64,000 nucleotides of DNA from Candidatus Micrarchaeota archaeon (GTDB taxonomy: Archaea > Micrarchaeota > Micrarchaeia > Norongarragalinales > Norongarragalinaceae). The position numbers and the translations under genes are program-made. The notes beneath the pieces are model-generated. The model ran no database searches and was not told the DNA's origin. It worked only from the letters and a program-made list of their open reading frames with translations. Shown here piece after piece: positions 8,656-44,567 of this stretch. Location of the stretch: positions 32,001-96,000 of the forward strand of contig JACQQD010000008.1 in assembly GCA_016207165.1 (NCBI GenBank), written 5' to 3'. Numbering within the stretch: position 1 is the first letter of the stretch; each line of letters opens with the position of its first letter.

Positions 8656-9711
8656 ATGGATGAGGGTCGTCTGCAACGCATCAAGGACGCTTTGGAAGAG
8701 GCGCCGGACGAGTCGGACGTGGCTTCGACGCCGGACGTGTCGGGGTTGGCGGCCCGCTTCCGCGAAGAGTCCGGTGCACCCACCGCCCCGCAAAAGCCTT
8801 TGCTTAACTTTGACCGCGTGGCTTTCCCCAAGAAAGGCGTGTTGTCGTTCTTCGGCGGAATCTACCAGCGTTTCGGCCGCTTTTTTCGGGGTCTTTCCGA
8901 ATTCTTTTCCCGCCTGCCCATTTACTCGTCGCTGAAAGAAAACTTGGCGTGCGCGGGCATGCGCATGGAGCCGGAGAATTTTCTCGTGATTTCCGTGACG
9001 GGCGCGTTCTCGTTTGGCGCCTTGGTGTTTGCCGCCGTGGCCCTTTTGGGCGTGTTTCTGCGCGACGTGCTTTTGGGCTTGGCAGCCCCCTTTCTTGGCC
9101 TGGCGGCGTTTATCGGCGTGCTGTTGATCGCGCTGTCGTACCCTTCCATGCAGGCCAACCAGCGCGCCACGCACGTGGACCGCGTGTTGCCGTTTGCCTT
9201 GCGTCAGCTGTCCACCCAAGTCAAAGCCGGCGTGTCCTTTCACCGCGCCATGCAATCCATTGCCGCGTCCGACTACGGGTTGCTCAGCGAGGAGTTCGCC
9301 AAAGTGGCCGCGGATGTCAACCGCGGCGACACCATGGAGAATGCGTTGCTGAAAATGTCGCGTCGGACCAAGTCCCGGGGCCTGCGCAGGACCGTCACGC
9401 AACTGCTTCGATCGTTTAAAAGCGGGGGTAACCTGTCGCAGATCATTTCCGACATCGCCGACGACGTCTCCTTCGAGGTGCGCATGAGCATCCGCGACTT
9501 CACCGAGAAGCTCAACTTCATCAACGTCATCTACATCATGGTCGGCGTCGTGGCGCCGGTGACTCTGGCCATTCTGTCGGCGATCCTCCAGATTCCCTTG
9601 TTCGCCGGCAGCATCCCGCCGTTCTTGGTGTACTTTGCCTTCGTGGGCATTTTGGGCGTCATGGTCGCGATTTTGTACGCGACCAAGCGCATGGAGCCGT
9701 CGGTATGGTAA
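8656..9711 (+). CDS. Type IV pilus platform membrane protein (TadB/TadC, T2SS-F family)
   Basis: LPFALRQL..AG, YGLLSEEF, GGNLS motif; follows the ATPase. Confidence 0.9.
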   Translation: MDEGRLQRIKDALEEAPDESDVASTPDVSGLAARFREESGAPTAPQKPLLNFDRVAFPKKGVLSFFGGIYQRFGRFFRGLSEFFSRLPIYSSLKENLACAGMRMEPENFLVISVTGAFSFGALVFAAVALLGVFLRDVLLGLAAPFLGLAAFIGVLLIALSYPSMQANQRATHVDRVLPFALRQLSTQVKAGVSFHRAMQSIAASDYGLLSEEFAKVAADVNRGDTMENALLKMSRRTKSRGLRRTVTQLLRSFKSGGNLSQIISDIADDVSFEVRMSIRDFTEKLNFINVIYIMVGVVAPVTLAILSAILQIPLFAGSIPPFLVYFAFVGILGVMVAILYATKRMEPSVW

Positions 9712-10619
9712 CTCCGTCGGAAAACCTCAAAGCCCAGTACGGCAAGCTCAAGCAGTATTATGCGGTGGCCGGTTTTCGCATGCCGTTTGAGCGCTTCGTG
9801 GCCCTTTTTTTCCTGATTTCGCTCTCCGTTTTCGTGGTTCTTTTGTTGCTCCGATTGAGCCTGGTCGTATCCGTGGTCGCGTTTTTGACGTTCATGAGTT
9901 TTGCCGTCTCCATTCCGTTGACCATCCGCAACAACCGCATCGACGCCATCGAAGCCAACCTGCCGGATGCACTCAAGCACATGGCTTTGGTGCTCAAGTC
10001 CGGGGGCACCACTGAGGCCGCGTTGCAGGAAGTCGCGCAAGCCGAGTACGGGCCCGTGAGCGACGACCTCAAAACGTCGCTGGTGCAGTTGCAGGAGGGC
10101 AAATCTTTTGAGGAAGTCTTGGAGGAGGCGGCCAAAAAATCCGGTTCGCTTCTCTTCCAGCGAACGGTCCGAATCGTTTTGGACGCCAAGCGCGCCGGCG
10201 GGGGTTTGGCTGACGTCATGTACAGCATCGCCGAAGACGCCCGCGACCTGCTTCACATCAAGCGGGAACGACGCAGCCGCACCACCATGCACGTGTTGTT
10301 CTTGTTTGTTTCTGGCGTCATATTGGCCCCCTTTATTTTCGGTTTTTCCGTGTCCATCGTCCACTACATCAATACGGGTATTTCGTCCGCGCTTCCCAAC
10401 TCGAAAGCGTCGGGTCTCTGCGATTTGAACAGCGTCTTGACGCTGTTCTTGATGGCCCAGACGCTCATTGCCGCCCTGGCTATCGGCTTGATTCGCGAAG
10501 GGCGGTTCACGAAGTATCTCCTGTACGCGCCGGTCATGGTTTTGGCCGCCCTTATTATATTCGAGGCCGGTAAGTTTGTAAGCGCCCTCATCGTGGGCGG
10601 CGCCGTGATTGCATGCTGA
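9705..10619 (+). CDS. Second TadC / T2SS-F family membrane protein
   Basis: IEANLPDALKHM..SG, YGPVS, GGGLAD motifs. Confidence 0.9.
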   Translation: MVTPSENLKAQYGKLKQYYAVAGFRMPFERFVALFFLISLSVFVVLLLLRLSLVVSVVAFLTFMSFAVSIPLTIRNNRIDAIEANLPDALKHMALVLKSGGTTEAALQEVAQAEYGPVSDDLKTSLVQLQEGKSFEEVLEEAAKKSGSLLFQRTVRIVLDAKRAGGGLADVMYSIAEDARDLLHIKRERRSRTTMHVLFLFVSGVILAPFIFGFSVSIVHYINTGISSALPNSKASGLCDLNSVLTLFLMAQTLIAALAIGLIREGRFTKYLLYAPVMVLAALIIFEAGKFVSALIVGGAVIAC

Positions 10620-10741
10620 AAAAAGCCTTCCGTTCAATCCGCGGACAAACGGCGATTGAATACGTCATGATGATTAGTGCCACCGTCATGTTCATTTCAC
10701 TCGTCGCTTTTTTCATCAAGACTCGAGTGATTGCGCCGTGA
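10613..10741 (+). CDS. 42-aa class III signal-peptide micro-pilin (absent from ORF track)
   Basis: MLKKAFRSIRG|QTAIEYVMMISATVMFISLVAFFIKTRVIAP; overlaps both neighbours. Confidence 0.85.
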   Translation: MLKKAFRSIRGQTAIEYVMMISATVMFISLVAFFIKTRVIAP

Positions 10742-10974
10742 GTTCACCGCTTCGCTCCCAGACGTCCATTGAGTACGTCATGATTTTGGGCGGCGTTTTG
10801 CTGATCGTGTCGTTGTTTGCGTATTTTCTCCTCAACACGGTCTACGCGCCGCAGACGGCCGACTTGGAGAATAAATCCAAGGAGTACAAAGACCTCAAAG
10901 GGCAACTCAACGACCAATTGGGCGACTTGGACGGTTCTGAGCAACCCGGCCCGTCGCCGTCGCCGGCTGGATGA
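10738..10974 (+). CDS. Class III signal-peptide pilin
   Basis: RS|QTSIEYVMILGGVLLIV. Confidence 0.85.
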   Translation: MSSPLRSQTSIEYVMILGGVLLIVSLFAYFLLNTVYAPQTADLENKSKEYKDLKGQLNDQLGDLDGSEQPGPSPSPAG

Positions 10975-11037
10975 CAAAGGTTTTTAAACCCCGTTCCGTT
11001 AGGCTTTCAATTGAATCTCACAAGGGGGTTTTTCAGG

Positions 11038-11367
11038 ATGAAGCGGGGTCAAGGAACCTTTGAGTACGTGTTGCTTTTGGGCGGCGTTTTGTTGATCGTG
11101 GTTTTGGCTATCGTTGTTTTGCAGCAGACGGCGCAACAGGGCTTCCAGGGCGCGGGCCAGCAACAGTGTACGGCGCGCTTGTTGACGGACATTTCCTGTC
11201 GCAACGCGCAAGGCAACTTTAACAGTTGTGGCGTCGTGACGGCCTCCACGTATCAGGGTTGCCAATTCCAGGCAGGCACGTTTACCACGGCCGCGCCGAC
11301 GGGTTGCACCAACACCATTGACGCCGCCACGCAGCGGTACTGCGGCCGCGCGCCGATTGGTCCGTAA
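11038..11367 (+). CDS. Probable major pilin 1 (6 Cys head)
   Basis: MKRG|QGTFEYVLLLGGVLLIVV; own TTTTTAAA box at ~10980 and T-rich terminator. Confidence 0.88.
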   Translation: MKRGQGTFEYVLLLGGVLLIVVLAIVVLQQTAQQGFQGAGQQQCTARLLTDISCRNAQGNFNSCGVVTASTYQGCQFQAGTFTTAAPTGCTNTIDAATQRYCGRAPIGP

Positions 11368-11372
11368 AACGG

Positions 11373-11433
11373 TTTTTTTTCCCCGTTTTCCTTTTTTTCT
11401 TTTCGTATTCCTTTTTTTTCGTTCCTCTTTTTT
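11373..11433 (+). terminator. Oligo-T terminator after pilin 1
   Basis: Several consecutive T-runs directly after the stop codon. Confidence 0.65.
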
Positions 11434-11470
11434 CCTAAAGGCTTAAATTTTGTGGTTGTTTGGCTGGTTC

Positions 11471-11806
11471 ATGCGTTTGCGGCGGGGTCAAGGAACCTTT
11501 GAGTACGTGTTGCTTTTGGGCGGCGTTTTGTTGATCGTGGTTTTGGCTATCGTTGTTTTGCAGCAGACGGCTCAAGAAAGTTTTCGGGACGCCGGCTCCA
11601 AGCAGTGCGCGGCGCGCTTGCTCACGGATTTAGAGTGCCACGATGCCGACGGTTCTTGGAATGCGTGCGAGGACGTGGATGCATCGCGGTATGCGGGGTG
11701 CGTGTTTGGGTCGGAGACGTTTACCGCCGTGAGTCCGAGGGCGGGTTGCGAGGCGTTGGATGACCCCTTGACGGAGCGGTACTGCGGCAAGCCCCCGGTG
11801 TCGTAA
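11471..11806 (+). CDS. Pilin 2, paralog of pilin 1
   Basis: RRG|QGTFEYVLLLGG; 90 bp identical to pilin 1; same six Cys. Confidence 0.88.
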   Translation: MRLRRGQGTFEYVLLLGGVLLIVVLAIVVLQQTAQESFRDAGSKQCAARLLTDLECHDADGSWNACEDVDASRYAGCVFGSETFTAVSPRAGCEALDDPLTERYCGKPPVS

Positions 11807-11852
11807 GGGCTTTTGGTAAATGCTTTTTAACGAGGGTCACGTCGTGTCTTTC

Positions 11853-12029
11853 ATGCGGAATAAAGTTCGGGCCCAAGCCGCCATTGAATACATTTTACTG
11901 GTTTCGTTTGGCTTGTTCGTCGTCATCGTCGGCTTCACGTTGGCTTTTTACGTGAAGAGCTTCACGGATTCCGCGTTGGCCTTGGTCGCGGAGAACCGGG
12001 ATGCCATGCTGGGCTTTTTGTTGCGTTGA
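11853..12029 (+). CDS. Short class III signal-peptide pilin
   Basis: MRNKVRA|QAAIEYILLVSFG. Confidence 0.85.
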   Translation: MRNKVRAQAAIEYILLVSFGLFVVIVGFTLAFYVKSFTDSALALVAENRDAMLGFLLR

Positions 12030-12132
12030 TTTGATTCGCGTTAGCCGGGGGTTCGGGGGAACCTGGGACTATAGGGGGCGGAGCCCCCTGTGGTCCGGGC
12101 GTGAGAACCGGGATGCCATGCTGGGCTTTTTG
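12030..12132 (+). mobile_element. ~73-bp hairpin element (family B) plus duplicated pilin 3' end
   Basis: 11991-12020 repeated exactly at 12103-12132; intervening DNA carries GGACTATAGGGGGC-GGA-GCCCCCTGTGGTCC; homologous to 44138-44206. Mobility is inferred. Confidence 0.65.
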
Positions 12133-12181
12133 CTTCGGTAGACGGAAATCCTTTTCTGTCCGTGTATCCTTTTTTCTCTGC

Positions 12182-43906: not shown

Positions 43907-44110
43907 GTGGCGGAAAAACCAAGGAGTCGACGCGGGCAATCGCATGGCACCATGGCGGTGGCGGTCATGGTTTTGTTGGTGCCCGTGGTGCCGGTGGCGT
44001 ACTGGTTCACGGATCATCTCGCCCCCGTGTTTAACTGGTTTGAGGGCCCCCAGATTCTCGCGGCCACCGCCGTTTTGGCGTGGATGTTTTTCCAGAAGTT
44101 CCACTATTAA
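43907..44110 (+). CDS. Small two-TM protein, possible class III-like leader
   Basis: RRG|Q followed by hydrophobic stretch, but lacks E+5. Confidence 0.5.
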   Translation: MAEKPRSRRGQSHGTMAVAVMVLLVPVVPVAYWFTDHLAPVFNWFEGPQILAATAVLAWMFFQKFHY

Positions 44111-44206
44111 AAAGAGCGCCCGAGGTCAGGACTCGAAGGTCGCCCCAGGGGGCTCCGCCCCCTTGGCCCGACCTAGGCCTCGACCCCCGACTAGCTTTTT
44201 GAATCG
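44110..44206 (-). mobile_element. 69-bp hairpin element (family B) plus duplicated tRNA 3' end
   Basis: 44207-44233 repeated at 44110-44137 (1-nt insertion); same AGGGGGCGGAGCCCCCTG core as at 12073. Mobility is inferred. Confidence 0.65.
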
Positions 44207-44213
44207 AAAAGAG

Positions 44214-44338
44214 CGCCCGAGGTCGGACTCGAACCGACGGCCTGCTGATTTCTGTGGATTCAATGAGTTTGCCGACGACCCAAAGTCGGCGGTTACGCTC
44301 TTAACAGTCAGCCGCTCTACCTGCTGAGCTACCCGGGC
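44214..44338 (-). tRNA. tRNA-Asn(GUU) with 52-nt intron at 37/38 (44250-44301); CCA not encoded
   Basis: GCCCGGG/CUCGGGC acceptor, UAGCUCAG D-arm, GCUGA-CU-GUU-A/A-UCAGC anticodon arm, GUUCGAGUC T-loop; 73 nt after splicing. Confidence 0.95.
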
Positions 44339-44519: not shown

Positions 44520-44557
44520 AAAAGAAAAAGAAAGAGGAAAAAGGGGGCTGCGCCCCC
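44520..44557 (-). terminator. Hairpin + T-tract terminator
   Basis: GGGGGC-GCA-GCCCCC-TTTTTCCTCTTT on minus strand just after the operon's last stop. Confidence 0.75.
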
Positions 44558-44567
44558 AACGACGCGC

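What the first reader, a model, noticed from the sequence alone, without database searches (positions are those of the whole stretch)
11991..12141. Hairpin element that sits between a gene 3' end and a copy of that end (site 1: pilin)
Seen: GAGAACCGGGATGCCATGCTGGGCTTTTTG occurs at 11991 and 12103; the copies continue TTG CGT TGA and CTT CGG TAG, both Leu-Arg-stop, so both encode ENRDAMLGFLLR*. The 73 bp between them carry TTxGATTC..TAGxCGGGGGT and a long hairpin GGACTATAGGGGGC-GGA-GCCCCCTGTGGTCC with G-T wobbles that ends just before the duplicate. A homologous element with the same geometry follows tRNA-Asn. Inference: a tiny non-autonomous element that targets unrelated gene ends and regenerates them (attL/attR-like relic or HUH/ssDNA insertion), or a scaffold + 3' guide RNA matching the neighbouring gene. 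Two unrelated targets argue against an ordinary single-site integrase.
Basis: partly seen in the sequence, partly recalled or inferred. Interest (0 to 1): 0.85.

Follow-up and report, generated by a model that had tools for sequence, protein, structure and literature searches.

The report
Tiny hairpin element that duplicates gene ends
A protein-less, 50-230 base structured DNA element sits in about twenty copies in this small archaeal genome, each between a gene or tRNA end and a second copy of that end, and appears to be an undescribed kind of miniature mobile element.

Summary
At window 11991-12141 a 73-nt hairpin-bearing core lies between two copies of the last 12 codons plus stop of a pilin-like gene. 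The tRNA site near 44.1-44.2 kb has the same geometry.

It is one member of a family:
- About 20 copies lie in this 1.27 Mb genome, which is probably a Micrarchaeota (DPANN) genome. Dozens more lie in two congeners, another genus and groundwater metagenomes.
- 15 of 18 cores have flanking direct repeats above the 99th percentile of 400 random positions.
- The repeats are 13-111 nt and always include a gene boundary: tRNA T-loop to 3' end, or a CDS 3' or 5' end.
- Repeat differences are mostly synonymous (97 of 117 differing codons; random expectation 0.19). Several copies have diverged tails or UTRs, so one copy looks like an orthologous gene end from another lineage.
- Three sites are empty in congeners, and at the pilin site the distal copy is the native one.
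- The core has covarying helices.

No RT, HUH Y1, IS110 or Cas1 was found in the genus, and TnpB only in G002. Only Xer-like tyrosine recombinases are shared.

Best reading: a non-autonomous integrative mini-cassette (structured core plus captured gene end) that recombines at the hairpin foot. The enzyme and the intermediate are not shown. No matching description turned up in six literature searches.

The parts
11820..12029 (+). Target gene: 69-aa pilin-like ORF. A class III signal-peptide-like motif (KVRAQAAIEY) is seen by eye; the real start may be the ATG at 11853.
   Evidence: ORF list. Pfam gives no hit for this ORF, but three upstream neighbours match PF04021 Class_IIIsignal (one below its cut-off) and 9705-10619 matches T2SSF.
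11991..12029 (+). DR1: the functional end of the gene (12 codons plus TGA). Its last 9 nt look element-borne, that is foreign.
   Evidence: The G001 orthologue ends TAG followed by gcggaaag, which resembles DR2 plus its downstream sequence, not DR1.
12030..12102 (+). Element core, subfamily A: left motif TTTGATTCGC (12030-12039), GGGGGTTCGGGG motif with small hairpin (12047-12063), long hairpin (12066-12096), 6-nt spacer (12097-12102).
   Evidence: Homologous cores at other loci.
12103..12141 (+). DR2: displaced native copy of the gene end (12 codons plus TAG), contiguous with the native downstream sequence.
44214..44338 (-). Second target in the window: an intron-containing tRNA (anticodon GTT by eye).
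   Evidence: Rfam tRNA, 57.2 bits; sequence.
44207..44233 (-). DR1 at the tRNA: T-loop to 3' end plus trailer (27 nt).
44138..44206 (-). Element core, subfamily B, with the same 15-nt hairpin core as the pilin copy.
44110..44137 (-). DR2 at the tRNA: a pseudo-copy of the tRNA 3' end with one inserted base.

Best explanation
The feature is one copy of a family of miniature, protein-less integrative elements. The mobile unit is a structured core of about 50-80 nt (longer in composite forms) joined to a 'mimic': a captured copy of the terminus of a conserved gene or tRNA, taken from a previous host lineage. It integrates at the homologous terminus of the recipient gene, with the joint at the 3' foot of the core's long hairpin. 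The gene then ends (or starts) with the element-borne mimic (DR1), and the native terminus (DR2) is displaced to the far side of the core. Gene function is kept, and the same address can be used again, which gives tandem arrays. SHOWN: the anatomy at dozens of sites; presence/absence between congeners; the native status of DR2 at the pilin site; coding-type divergence of the two copies; and covarying helices in the core. The wobble asymmetry between strands is seen in the window's pilin copy and in one column pair of the B/C alignment, but not in the window's tRNA copy. INFERRED: a small circular or circularly permuted [mimic + core] intermediate; recombination by a trans-acting recombinase, with the Xer-like zinc-ribbon tyrosine recombinase as the only candidate found; and a role for the mimic in choosing the address.
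For: 1. Family and repeats. 18 nhmmer hits (E <= 0.01) lie in the genome; 15 of 18 have flanking-repeat scores above the 99th percentile, and 12 of 18 above the maximum, of 400 random positions. Further copies appear. Repeats of 13-111 nt are also seen in most of the 36 core hits reported from the 39 extra loci fetched from G000-G002, G005, G009 and G018, and in the metagenome loci, where 30 core hits fall in 28 of 38 loci.
2. Targets. These are tRNA T-loop-to-3'-end segments (13 of 51 unique repeat pairs) and the ends of V-ATPase subunit D, ThiI, the ribonucleotide-reductase gene junction, an AsnC-type regulator, a Translin-family protein, UPF0147 and TFB.
3. Coding-type divergence. With rule-based reading frames, 97 of 117 differing codons in 22 pairs are synonymous, against a random mean of 0.19 and a maximum of 0.31 in 1000 simulations. 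Independently of frame, 119 of 176 differences fall in one codon phase, against a random mean of 85 and a maximum of 98 in 2000. Examples are UPF0147 (15 synonymous, 0 non-synonymous, including AGC/TCT serine) and V-ATPase D (4 and 0, including CGC/AGA).
4. Foreign origin. The two copies in L235 continue with different C-terminal tails. The 'filler' sequences at 5' ends carry their own Shine-Dalgarno-like GGTGA or GGAG. The copies at G002 C55 differ at many residues (read by eye).
5. Mobility. The pilin site is empty in G001, the Translin site is empty in G001 and G002, and the UPF0147 site is empty in G002. Arrays with three copies of the gene end occur at the G001 TFB site, in L030 and in L032.
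6. Structure. On 32 B/C-type cores the long hairpin is 97.9% paired, with 46 cells changed on both sides (0 of 500 shuffles reach this). The P2 helix has column pair 12-20 as GC 13, CG 9, GU 8, AU 1, UG 1.
7. Enzymes. In the 3 genomes of the genus no RT, Y1 HUH, IS110 DEDD or Cas1 was found. TnpB is present only in G002 and a serine recombinase only in G000. Tyrosine recombinases are present, and the zinc-ribbon type occurs in G000, G001, G002 and G009.
Against: - No recombinase is linked to the elements. The zinc-ribbon recombinase is found in 20 of 41 relatives while the element pattern is found in only 6 of 41, and it is not found in G005, G018 or G020, which do have element hits (G010, with one weak BLAST hit, also lacks it). 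It may simply be the housekeeping Xer enzyme.
- No shared sequence exists where the repeats begin. That is unlike ordinary integrase attB sites.
- No free, circular or larger gene-carrying form was found in the genome, in IMG/VR or in the metagenome loci.
- No empty allele or circle joint appears in the four runs, but those are contigs, which drop rare forms.
- A double-stranded circle of about 110 bp is physically awkward.
- 3 of 18 cores lack a clear repeat. The copy beside glutamine synthetase overlaps only the stop codon.
- Some repeat pairs are identical (49/49, 29/29, 22/22), which a duplication made at insertion explains equally well.
- The 'native versus foreign' call at the pilin site rests on about 17 nt.
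- With longest-ORF frames instead of rule-based frames the synonymous share is only 90 of 159. At least two pairs are mis-framed.
Confidence: 0.5

Rival explanations
1. Transposition or templated insertion (for example replication template switching at the stable hairpin) makes a long target duplication of variable length at the moment of insertion. The filled allele then spreads between lineages by homologous recombination or homing-like repair, with co-conversion of the donor's gene end. That would produce a foreign DR1 and a native DR2 without any circular cassette.
For: Identical repeat pairs exist (L233 49/49, L215 29/29, L219 22/22, C10 tRNA 19/19). Repeat lengths vary from 13 to 111 nt, unlike a fixed attachment-site core. 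Elements occur in both orientations at the same kind of target segment. In several pairs the differences are concentrated at the gene-distal end, as expected if the right-hand crossover lies inside DR2 (pilin, Translin and TFB). No dedicated enzyme was found.
Against: Transposases give target duplications of fixed length. tRNA repeats always begin in the T-loop (13 pairs), which points to site choice rather than selection alone. The right end of the element is sharp (GGGGCGACC, or GGTCC plus 0-6 nt). Pure template switching would give ragged ends.
Confidence: 0.25
2. Each site is a relic ('solo' remnant) of a larger integrase-bearing virus or plasmid that integrated at the gene end. The core is what remains of the element's two ends after an internal deletion.
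For: The geometry is that of classical integrative elements at tRNA T-loop-to-3' ends and at gene ends. Composite forms have two cores in inverted orientation between a single repeat pair (C6:21k, C1:179k, L034, L037). An integrase abuts tRNA-Met at C1:152998-154113.
Against: The same 50-80-nt core would have to be left by an identical deletion at dozens of independent sites. No full-length version with these ends was found in the genome (duplicates of tRNA ends sought genome-wide), in the metagenome loci or in IMG/VR. Covariation in the core argues for a function of the core itself.
Confidence: 0.1
3. The core is the scaffold of a small RNA whose 3' tail (DR2) guides a nuclease or recombinase to the matching gene end.
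For: In the pilin copy and at one pair of the B/C alignment the wobble pairs fit only one strand, which would suit RNA. Several DR2 copies are followed by T-runs.
Against: The 'guide' would be 13-111 nt long and often 20-30% different from its target. No TnpB was found in G000 or G001, and no IS110 or Cas1 in the genus. B-type copies have no conserved upstream promoter-like motif. No Rfam family matches. Synonymous-only divergence is not expected of a guide.
Confidence: 0.05

Closest known systems
Tyrosine-integrase integrative elements that insert in tRNA 3' ends or gene ends and restore them (for example the dusA 5'-end islands, PMC4482086, of which I saw only the search listing and the start of the abstract; P4-like and SXT/prfC examples are recalled from memory)
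   Same: Direct repeats that are copies of the target terminus. The tRNA T-loop-to-3'-end segment is the duplicated part. The element-borne copy becomes the functional end. Tandem arrays form at one address.
   Different: There are no genes at all, and the interior is 46-232 nt. One homologous core serves about 20 different addresses per genome. No common sequence marks the crossover, and no integrase is linked to the element.
Cis-mobilizable elements (CIMEs) and other integrase-less att-flanked derivatives of integrative elements (recalled from memory; not retrieved in my searches)
   Same: Non-autonomous and flanked by attL/attR-like repeats; presumably mobilised in trans.
   Different: CIMEs are kilobases long, share the single address of their parent element and have no conserved folded core.
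Integron attC sites and gene cassettes (PMC5737091 and 10.1101/2022.02.06.479319: search listings and abstract starts only)
   Same: A folded hairpin with unpaired positions. The joint lies at the foot of the hairpin. The cassette logic applies, and small size is no obstacle if the substrate is single-stranded.
   Different: No attI or intI platform and no cassette arrays. The 'cargo' is a gene end homologous to the insertion site, so repeats arise. R'/R'' boxes were not seen by eye in the alignments; no pattern search was run. The archaeal-integron paper has 0 occurrences of 'Micrarchaeota'.
IS200/IS605-derived PATEs and REP/REPIN-type hairpin repeats (PMC3116915 and PMC3733652: search listings only)
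   Same: Small, hairpin-based, multi-copy and non-autonomous.
   Different: Those elements make no target duplication and depend on a Y1 HUH protein. None was found in the 3 genomes of the genus.
Archaeal MITEs (mentioned in the Background passage of PMC13343696, which I saw through a term search)
   Same: Size and copy number.
   Different: MITEs have terminal inverted repeats and short target duplications of fixed length. Here the two ends differ and the duplications are 13-111 nt of gene end.

Membership tests
Integrase-type integrative element (att-flanked) | Flanking direct repeats that are a copy of the target gene or tRNA terminus | tested here: met
   15 of 18 cores score above the 99th percentile of controls.
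Integrase-type integrative element (att-flanked) | An element-encoded integrase | tested here: not met
   Interiors with clear repeats are 43-230 nt, too short to encode a recombinase. No core lies near the three integrase genes.
Integrase-type integrative element (att-flanked) | One specific attB with conserved recombinase-binding sequence at the crossover | tested here: not met
   The 53 junctions listed show no shared motif at the start of the repeats by eye, and the targets are unrelated genes.
MITE | Terminal inverted repeats and a short target duplication of fixed length | tested here: not met
   The left end (TTTGATTCGC or variable) and the right end (hairpin foot) are not inverse copies of each other. 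Duplications are 13-111 nt.
IS200/IS605 PATE | A Y1 HUH transposase in the genome, and insertion without target duplication | tested here: not met
   PF01797 was not found in 3 of 3 genomes of the genus (82-90% complete). Duplications are present.
Integron cassette / attC | A structure-specific folded hairpin site | tested here: inconclusive
   Covarying hairpin with conserved unpaired positions and G.T pairs at one column pair. No test was possible of whether it acts as DNA or RNA.
Integron cassette / attC | Cassette arrays next to intI/attI, with R'/R'' boxes | tested here: not met
   Copies are scattered at gene ends. The recombinases score far below the integron-integrase cut-offs. R boxes were looked for only by eye.
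TnpB/IscB-type guide RNA | An associated RNA-guided nuclease and a guide of fixed length | tested here: not met
   PF07282 is absent from G000 and G001. The tails are 13-111 nt.
Any Rfam family | A match at or near the family's gathering score | tested here: not met
   Only tRNA passes. The best core match is dauA at 26 bits against a threshold of 45.

The most novel reading that the evidence does not exclude
The element is a protein-less, self-addressing recombination cassette. A folded single-stranded core is recognised by a host (Xer-like) recombinase or by the replication/repair machinery, and the attached copy of a gene terminus serves as a programmable address. The cassette then homes to that gene in any related cell, replaces its terminus with a foreign one, and keeps the old one as a spare. 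This would be a natural system of homology-addressed integration that trades the ends of essential genes (TFB, V-ATPase, RNR, tRNAs) between Micrarchaeota lineages.
Probability: 0.25. Interest if true: 0.85.

Novelty: new variant of a known kind. Interest (0 to 1): 0.72.

Why it matters
If the reading holds, mobile DNA can be reduced to a folded site of about 60 nt plus an address copied from the target. Such an element can colonise the ends of essential, conserved genes in very small, gene-dense genomes without harm.

It would explain stray tRNA 3' fragments and duplicated gene ends in DPANN assemblies, which confuse gene callers and tRNA finders.

It provides markers of recent gene-end exchange between lineages.

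It also offers a testable candidate for structure-directed, address-programmable recombination using a host recombinase.

Even under the duller reading (a duplication made at insertion, followed by homologous spread), the long gene-end duplications of variable length and the covarying core match none of the element classes compared here.

Tried and rejected
- Rfam: no family matches the core.
- IMG/VR: the pattern scan gave 13 loci, all chance matches (nhmmer E >= 0.04, no repeats). The integrase has no relative there with this query.
Nearly all hits are chance matches in high-GC bacteria, and only four loci from 'Candidatus Micrarchaeota' records are relevant. The lineage name therefore rests on those titles alone.
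- Integrase co-occurrence: it gave no correlation with the elements.
- att-like repeats around the three integrase genes: none found.
- Distant duplicates of tRNA ends, as signs of large integrated elements: none found.
- Apparent 'swap' of the two UPF0147 end alleles between G000 and G001: withdrawn. With G002 and L281 added, all pairs share 39-50 of 60 nt, which is too saturated to assign orthology.
- Co-segregation by genome of amino-acid states (V/I, L/M, L/F, R/K) in both UPF0147 copies: noted but unexplained.
- Longest-ORF frame choice: it mis-framed many pairs and was replaced by rule-based frames plus a frame-free periodicity test.
- The 8-mer of the left motif: not enriched genome-wide (43 observed against 34 in a shuffle).
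- RNA data: no RNA holder was listed.
- Read laying: no skip or circle joints, but only contigs were available.
- Complex prediction, structure prediction and the protein-database searches: not used, because no protein belongs to the element.
- Paper supplements: not consulted. They are closed, and those of PMC13343696 might list repeats for this phylum.
- Literature: six searches and two term look-ups found no description of such elements. That is the whole basis of the 'not in print' claim.

Full report
WHAT IS AT THE SITE. The window is G000:C8:32001-96000 of a 1.27 Mb, 12-contig genome with 56% G+C. At 11991-12141 the last 12 codons and stop of a 69-aa ORF occur twice, 112 nt apart. The ORF sits in a pilus-type locus: a T2SSF protein and three proteins matching the class III signal peptide family (PF04021, one below its cut-off) lie just upstream. 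The ORF itself has no Pfam hit, and its signal-peptide motif was read by eye. The first 30 nt of the two copies are identical. The last 9 nt differ at five places without changing Leu-Arg-stop.

The 73 nt between the copies carry three features:
- a left motif, TTTGATTCGC;
- a GGGGGTTCGGGG motif with a 5-bp hairpin;
- a 14-bp hairpin with two T.G wobbles that ends 6 nt before the second copy.

As RNA the + strand folds 12 kcal/mol better than the - strand. A second copy follows an intron-containing tRNA at 44214-44338 on the minus strand, between the tRNA's T-loop-to-3' end and a pseudo-copy of it.

IT IS A FAMILY. BLAST, nhmmer and pattern searches find about 20 copies in this genome. 18 score E <= 0.01, and further copies appear. 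For 15 of the 18, the best local alignment between the 300 nt to the left and the 130 nt to the right exceeds the 99th percentile of 400 random positions. For 12 of 18 it exceeds the control maximum.

Three structural subfamilies share a 5' G-rich motif and a long GC-rich hairpin at the right end.

The distribution in other genomes is as follows:
- The element pattern occurs about 10-20 times each in the two congeners G001 and G002 and in G009 (another genus). It occurs once each in G005 and G018, at one place in each, and in none of the other 35 relatives searched. The reversed-pattern control gave zero everywhere.
- More diverged variants appear in G010, G020 and G039.
- A fixed B-type pattern found 38 metagenome loci, and 28 of them have a core hit with the same anatomy.
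- The only named records carrying the pattern in a believable context are 'Candidatus Micrarchaeota' groundwater MAGs.

THE REPEATS ARE GENE BOUNDARIES. Of 51 unique repeat pairs, 13 are tRNA T-loop-to-3'-end segments, ending 0-6 nt past the tRNA. Another 22 could be assigned to CDS 3' or 5' ends, and 16 were left unassigned. The G000 targets are:
- TFB 3' end;
- UPF0147 3' end;
- Translin-family 3' end;
- AsnC-type regulator 3' end;
- V-ATPase subunit D 5' end;
- ThiI 5' end;
- the junction of the two ribonucleotide-reductase genes, where each copy serves one gene;
- nine tRNAs.

All four geometries occur (gene to the left or right, sense or antisense). 'Gene to the left of the left motif' dominates. 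Composite forms have two inverted cores between one repeat pair, and tandem arrays with three copies of the gene end also occur. Three of the 18 cores lack a clear repeat; one of these only overlaps the stop codon of glutamine synthetase.

THE TWO COPIES DIFFER LIKE ORTHOLOGUES. With frames set by rule (a stop or start at the repeat's distal end and an open frame of at least 70 codons), 97 of 117 differing codons in 22 pairs are synonymous. Random placement of the same number of changes gives 0.19 (maximum 0.31 in 1000 simulations). At least two of these pairs are visibly mis-framed, which counts against the signal. A frame-free test agrees: 119 of 176 differences share one codon phase, against a random mean of 85 and a maximum of 98. 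A cruder longest-ORF frame choice gave 90 of 159.

Multi-step synonymous changes occur (AGC/TCT, CGC/AGA, TGA/TAG). Where the protein is less conserved, the copies differ in residues, in C-terminal tails (L235) or in the short UTR, each with its own Shine-Dalgarno-like motif (read by eye). A duplication made at insertion and followed by decay of the unused copy would not give this pattern. One copy must have evolved as coding sequence elsewhere. Identical pairs also exist (49/49, 29/29, 22/22).

MOBILITY AND POLARITY. The pilin site is empty in G001. There the gene ends with TAG followed by sequence that matches the DR2 flank in G000, so DR2 is native and the tail of DR1 came with the element. 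This rests on about 17 nt. The Translin site is empty in G001 and G002, and the UPF0147 site is empty in G002 but filled in G000, G001 and a metagenome organism. Logan contigs of three samples support both junctions of the pilin copy. No empty allele was seen there, but contigs hide rare forms.

THE CORE IS A CONSERVED FOLD. On 32 distinct B/C-type cores the long hairpin is 97.9% paired. It has 5 pairs changed on both sides (46 cells), and 0 of 500 shuffles reach this. Sliding the partner columns by one to three positions drops pairing to 39-71%. The terminal pentamer next to DR2 covaries with an internal pentamer: CTAAG with CTTAG, GTAAG with CTTAC, and GGTCG with CGACC.

A second helix (P2) that overlaps the first also covaries: GC 13, CG 9, GU 8, AU 1, UG 1 at one pair, and CG 26, AU 4 at another. 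This suggests either alternative folds or a pseudoknot. The G.T pairs at one column pair and the energy gap of the pilin copy fit one strand only, whereas the window's tRNA copy folds equally well on both strands. The shuffle control does not remove relatedness, so these numbers are support, not proof. Whether the folded molecule is RNA or single-stranded DNA cannot be told from sequence. Orientation relative to the genes is mixed, and B-type copies have no conserved promoter-like motif, which leans towards DNA.

ENZYMES. The results for the genus (G000, G001, G002) are:
- not found in any of the three: reverse transcriptase, Y1 HUH transposase, IS110 DEDD transposase, Cas1;
- TnpB only in G002, and a serine recombinase only in G000;
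- three tyrosine recombinases in G000. Two are paralogues with a C-terminal zinc ribbon. They are Xer-like but score far below the XerA cut-off. The third is strain-specific and abuts tRNA-Met.

The zinc-ribbon type is the only recombinase found in all element-rich genomes. It is also found in many genomes without the element (20 of 41 against 6 of 41). It is therefore a candidate, not a finding.

MECHANISM. I commit to an integrative mini-cassette, [captured gene end + structured core], that recombines at the hairpin foot. The gene acquires the element-borne end and the native end is displaced. This accounts for:
- the polarity at the pilin site;
- the coding-type divergence and the foreign tails and UTRs;
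- the tRNA T-loop sublocation;
- the tandem arrays;
- the sharp right end.

It does not yet account for the enzyme, for how new addresses are captured, for copies without repeats, or for 'solo' left motifs after some DR2 copies.

The main rival is a variable target duplication made at insertion followed by homologous spread with co-conversion. It explains the identical pairs and the variable lengths, but not the T-loop preference. The relic and guide-RNA readings are weaker, for the reasons given under the rival explanations.

COMPARISON AND NOVELTY. The anatomy works like attL and attR of integrase-borne islands that restore tRNA or gene ends. The family fails the membership tests for those islands (no integrase, many addresses, no conserved crossover sequence), for MITEs, for IS200/IS605 PATEs, for integron cassettes and for TnpB guide RNAs. 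Six full-text searches and two term look-ups found no description. The review of archaeal tyrosine recombinases has none of six relevant terms, and the 2026 archaeal IS survey mentions Micrarchaeota only for IS and eukaryotic-like transposon counts. I rate it a new variant of a known kind (non-autonomous integrative elements) with real potential to be more.

Noticed in passing
window 9705-12029: A pilus-type locus. It holds a T2SSF (TadC/FlaJ-like) membrane protein followed by three small proteins matching the class III signal peptide family (PF04021, one below its cut-off) and the 69-aa target ORF. Two of them, the 118-aa ORFs at 11011-11367 and 11450-11806, are paralogues with conserved Cys patterns.
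   Followed up: partly
window 44214-44338 (-): A tRNA with an intron of about 52 nt after the anticodon loop. ARAGORN's default mode finds no tRNA in the whole window, and with introns allowed it calls this one Ser(aga), whereas the loop reads GTT by eye. About half of the 47 ARAGORN tRNA calls in the genome have introns.
   Followed up: partly
G000 C8:6396-6426, C8:8772-8801, C8:958-983, C8:23534-23517; L208, L244, L247: The displaced tRNA-end copies (DR2) regularly carry 1-2 extra bases inside the T-loop, right at the joint with the core (for example GTTC-TG-GAATC against the native GTTC-GAATC). This could be a footprint of the joining reaction or selection against a functional fragment. Read by eye.
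   Followed up: no
G000 C6:128347-128478 (ThiI) and C11:80449-80625 (V-ATPase D): At 5'-end insertions, a short ORF starts at the displaced native ATG, runs through the reverse complement of the core, and stops overlapping the real start codon (ATGA, or TAA 5 nt in). That arrangement would allow translational coupling. Read by eye.
   Followed up: no
L208, L247/L260, L256, L261, L273; G001 C6:16243-16300 (L187): Several DR2 copies are followed by a 'solo' left motif, sometimes with the first 9-10 nt of a core, and then by unrelated sequence. These may be remnants of older elements or a sign that recombination can also occur at the 5' edge of the core.
   Followed up: no
G000 C1:152884-154113 and C1:163156-163587: A strain-specific tyrosine integrase whose 3' end overlaps the 3' end of tRNA-Met, with a serine recombinase 10 kb away. 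This is probably an integrated element. No second copy of the tRNA end was found in the assembly.
   Followed up: partly
UPF0147 gene ends in G000 (C10:5531-5741), G001 (L042), L281: Both repeat copies within a genome encode the same lineage-specific residues (V/I, L/M, L/F by TTC and TTT, R/K), although they differ at 13-26% of nucleotides. The sample is too small to decide between close donors and selection acting on both copies.
   Followed up: partly
window 44541-44558 (-) and C8:81847 (window 49847): GC hairpins followed by T-runs directly after stop codons. These are ordinary terminator-like hairpins that resemble the element's hairpin but have no flanking repeats.
   Followed up: partly
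G002 C32:1009-1206 (L191): A TnpB-like ORF (382 aa open frame) lies directly upstream of the empty UPF0147 site in G002.
   Followed up: no
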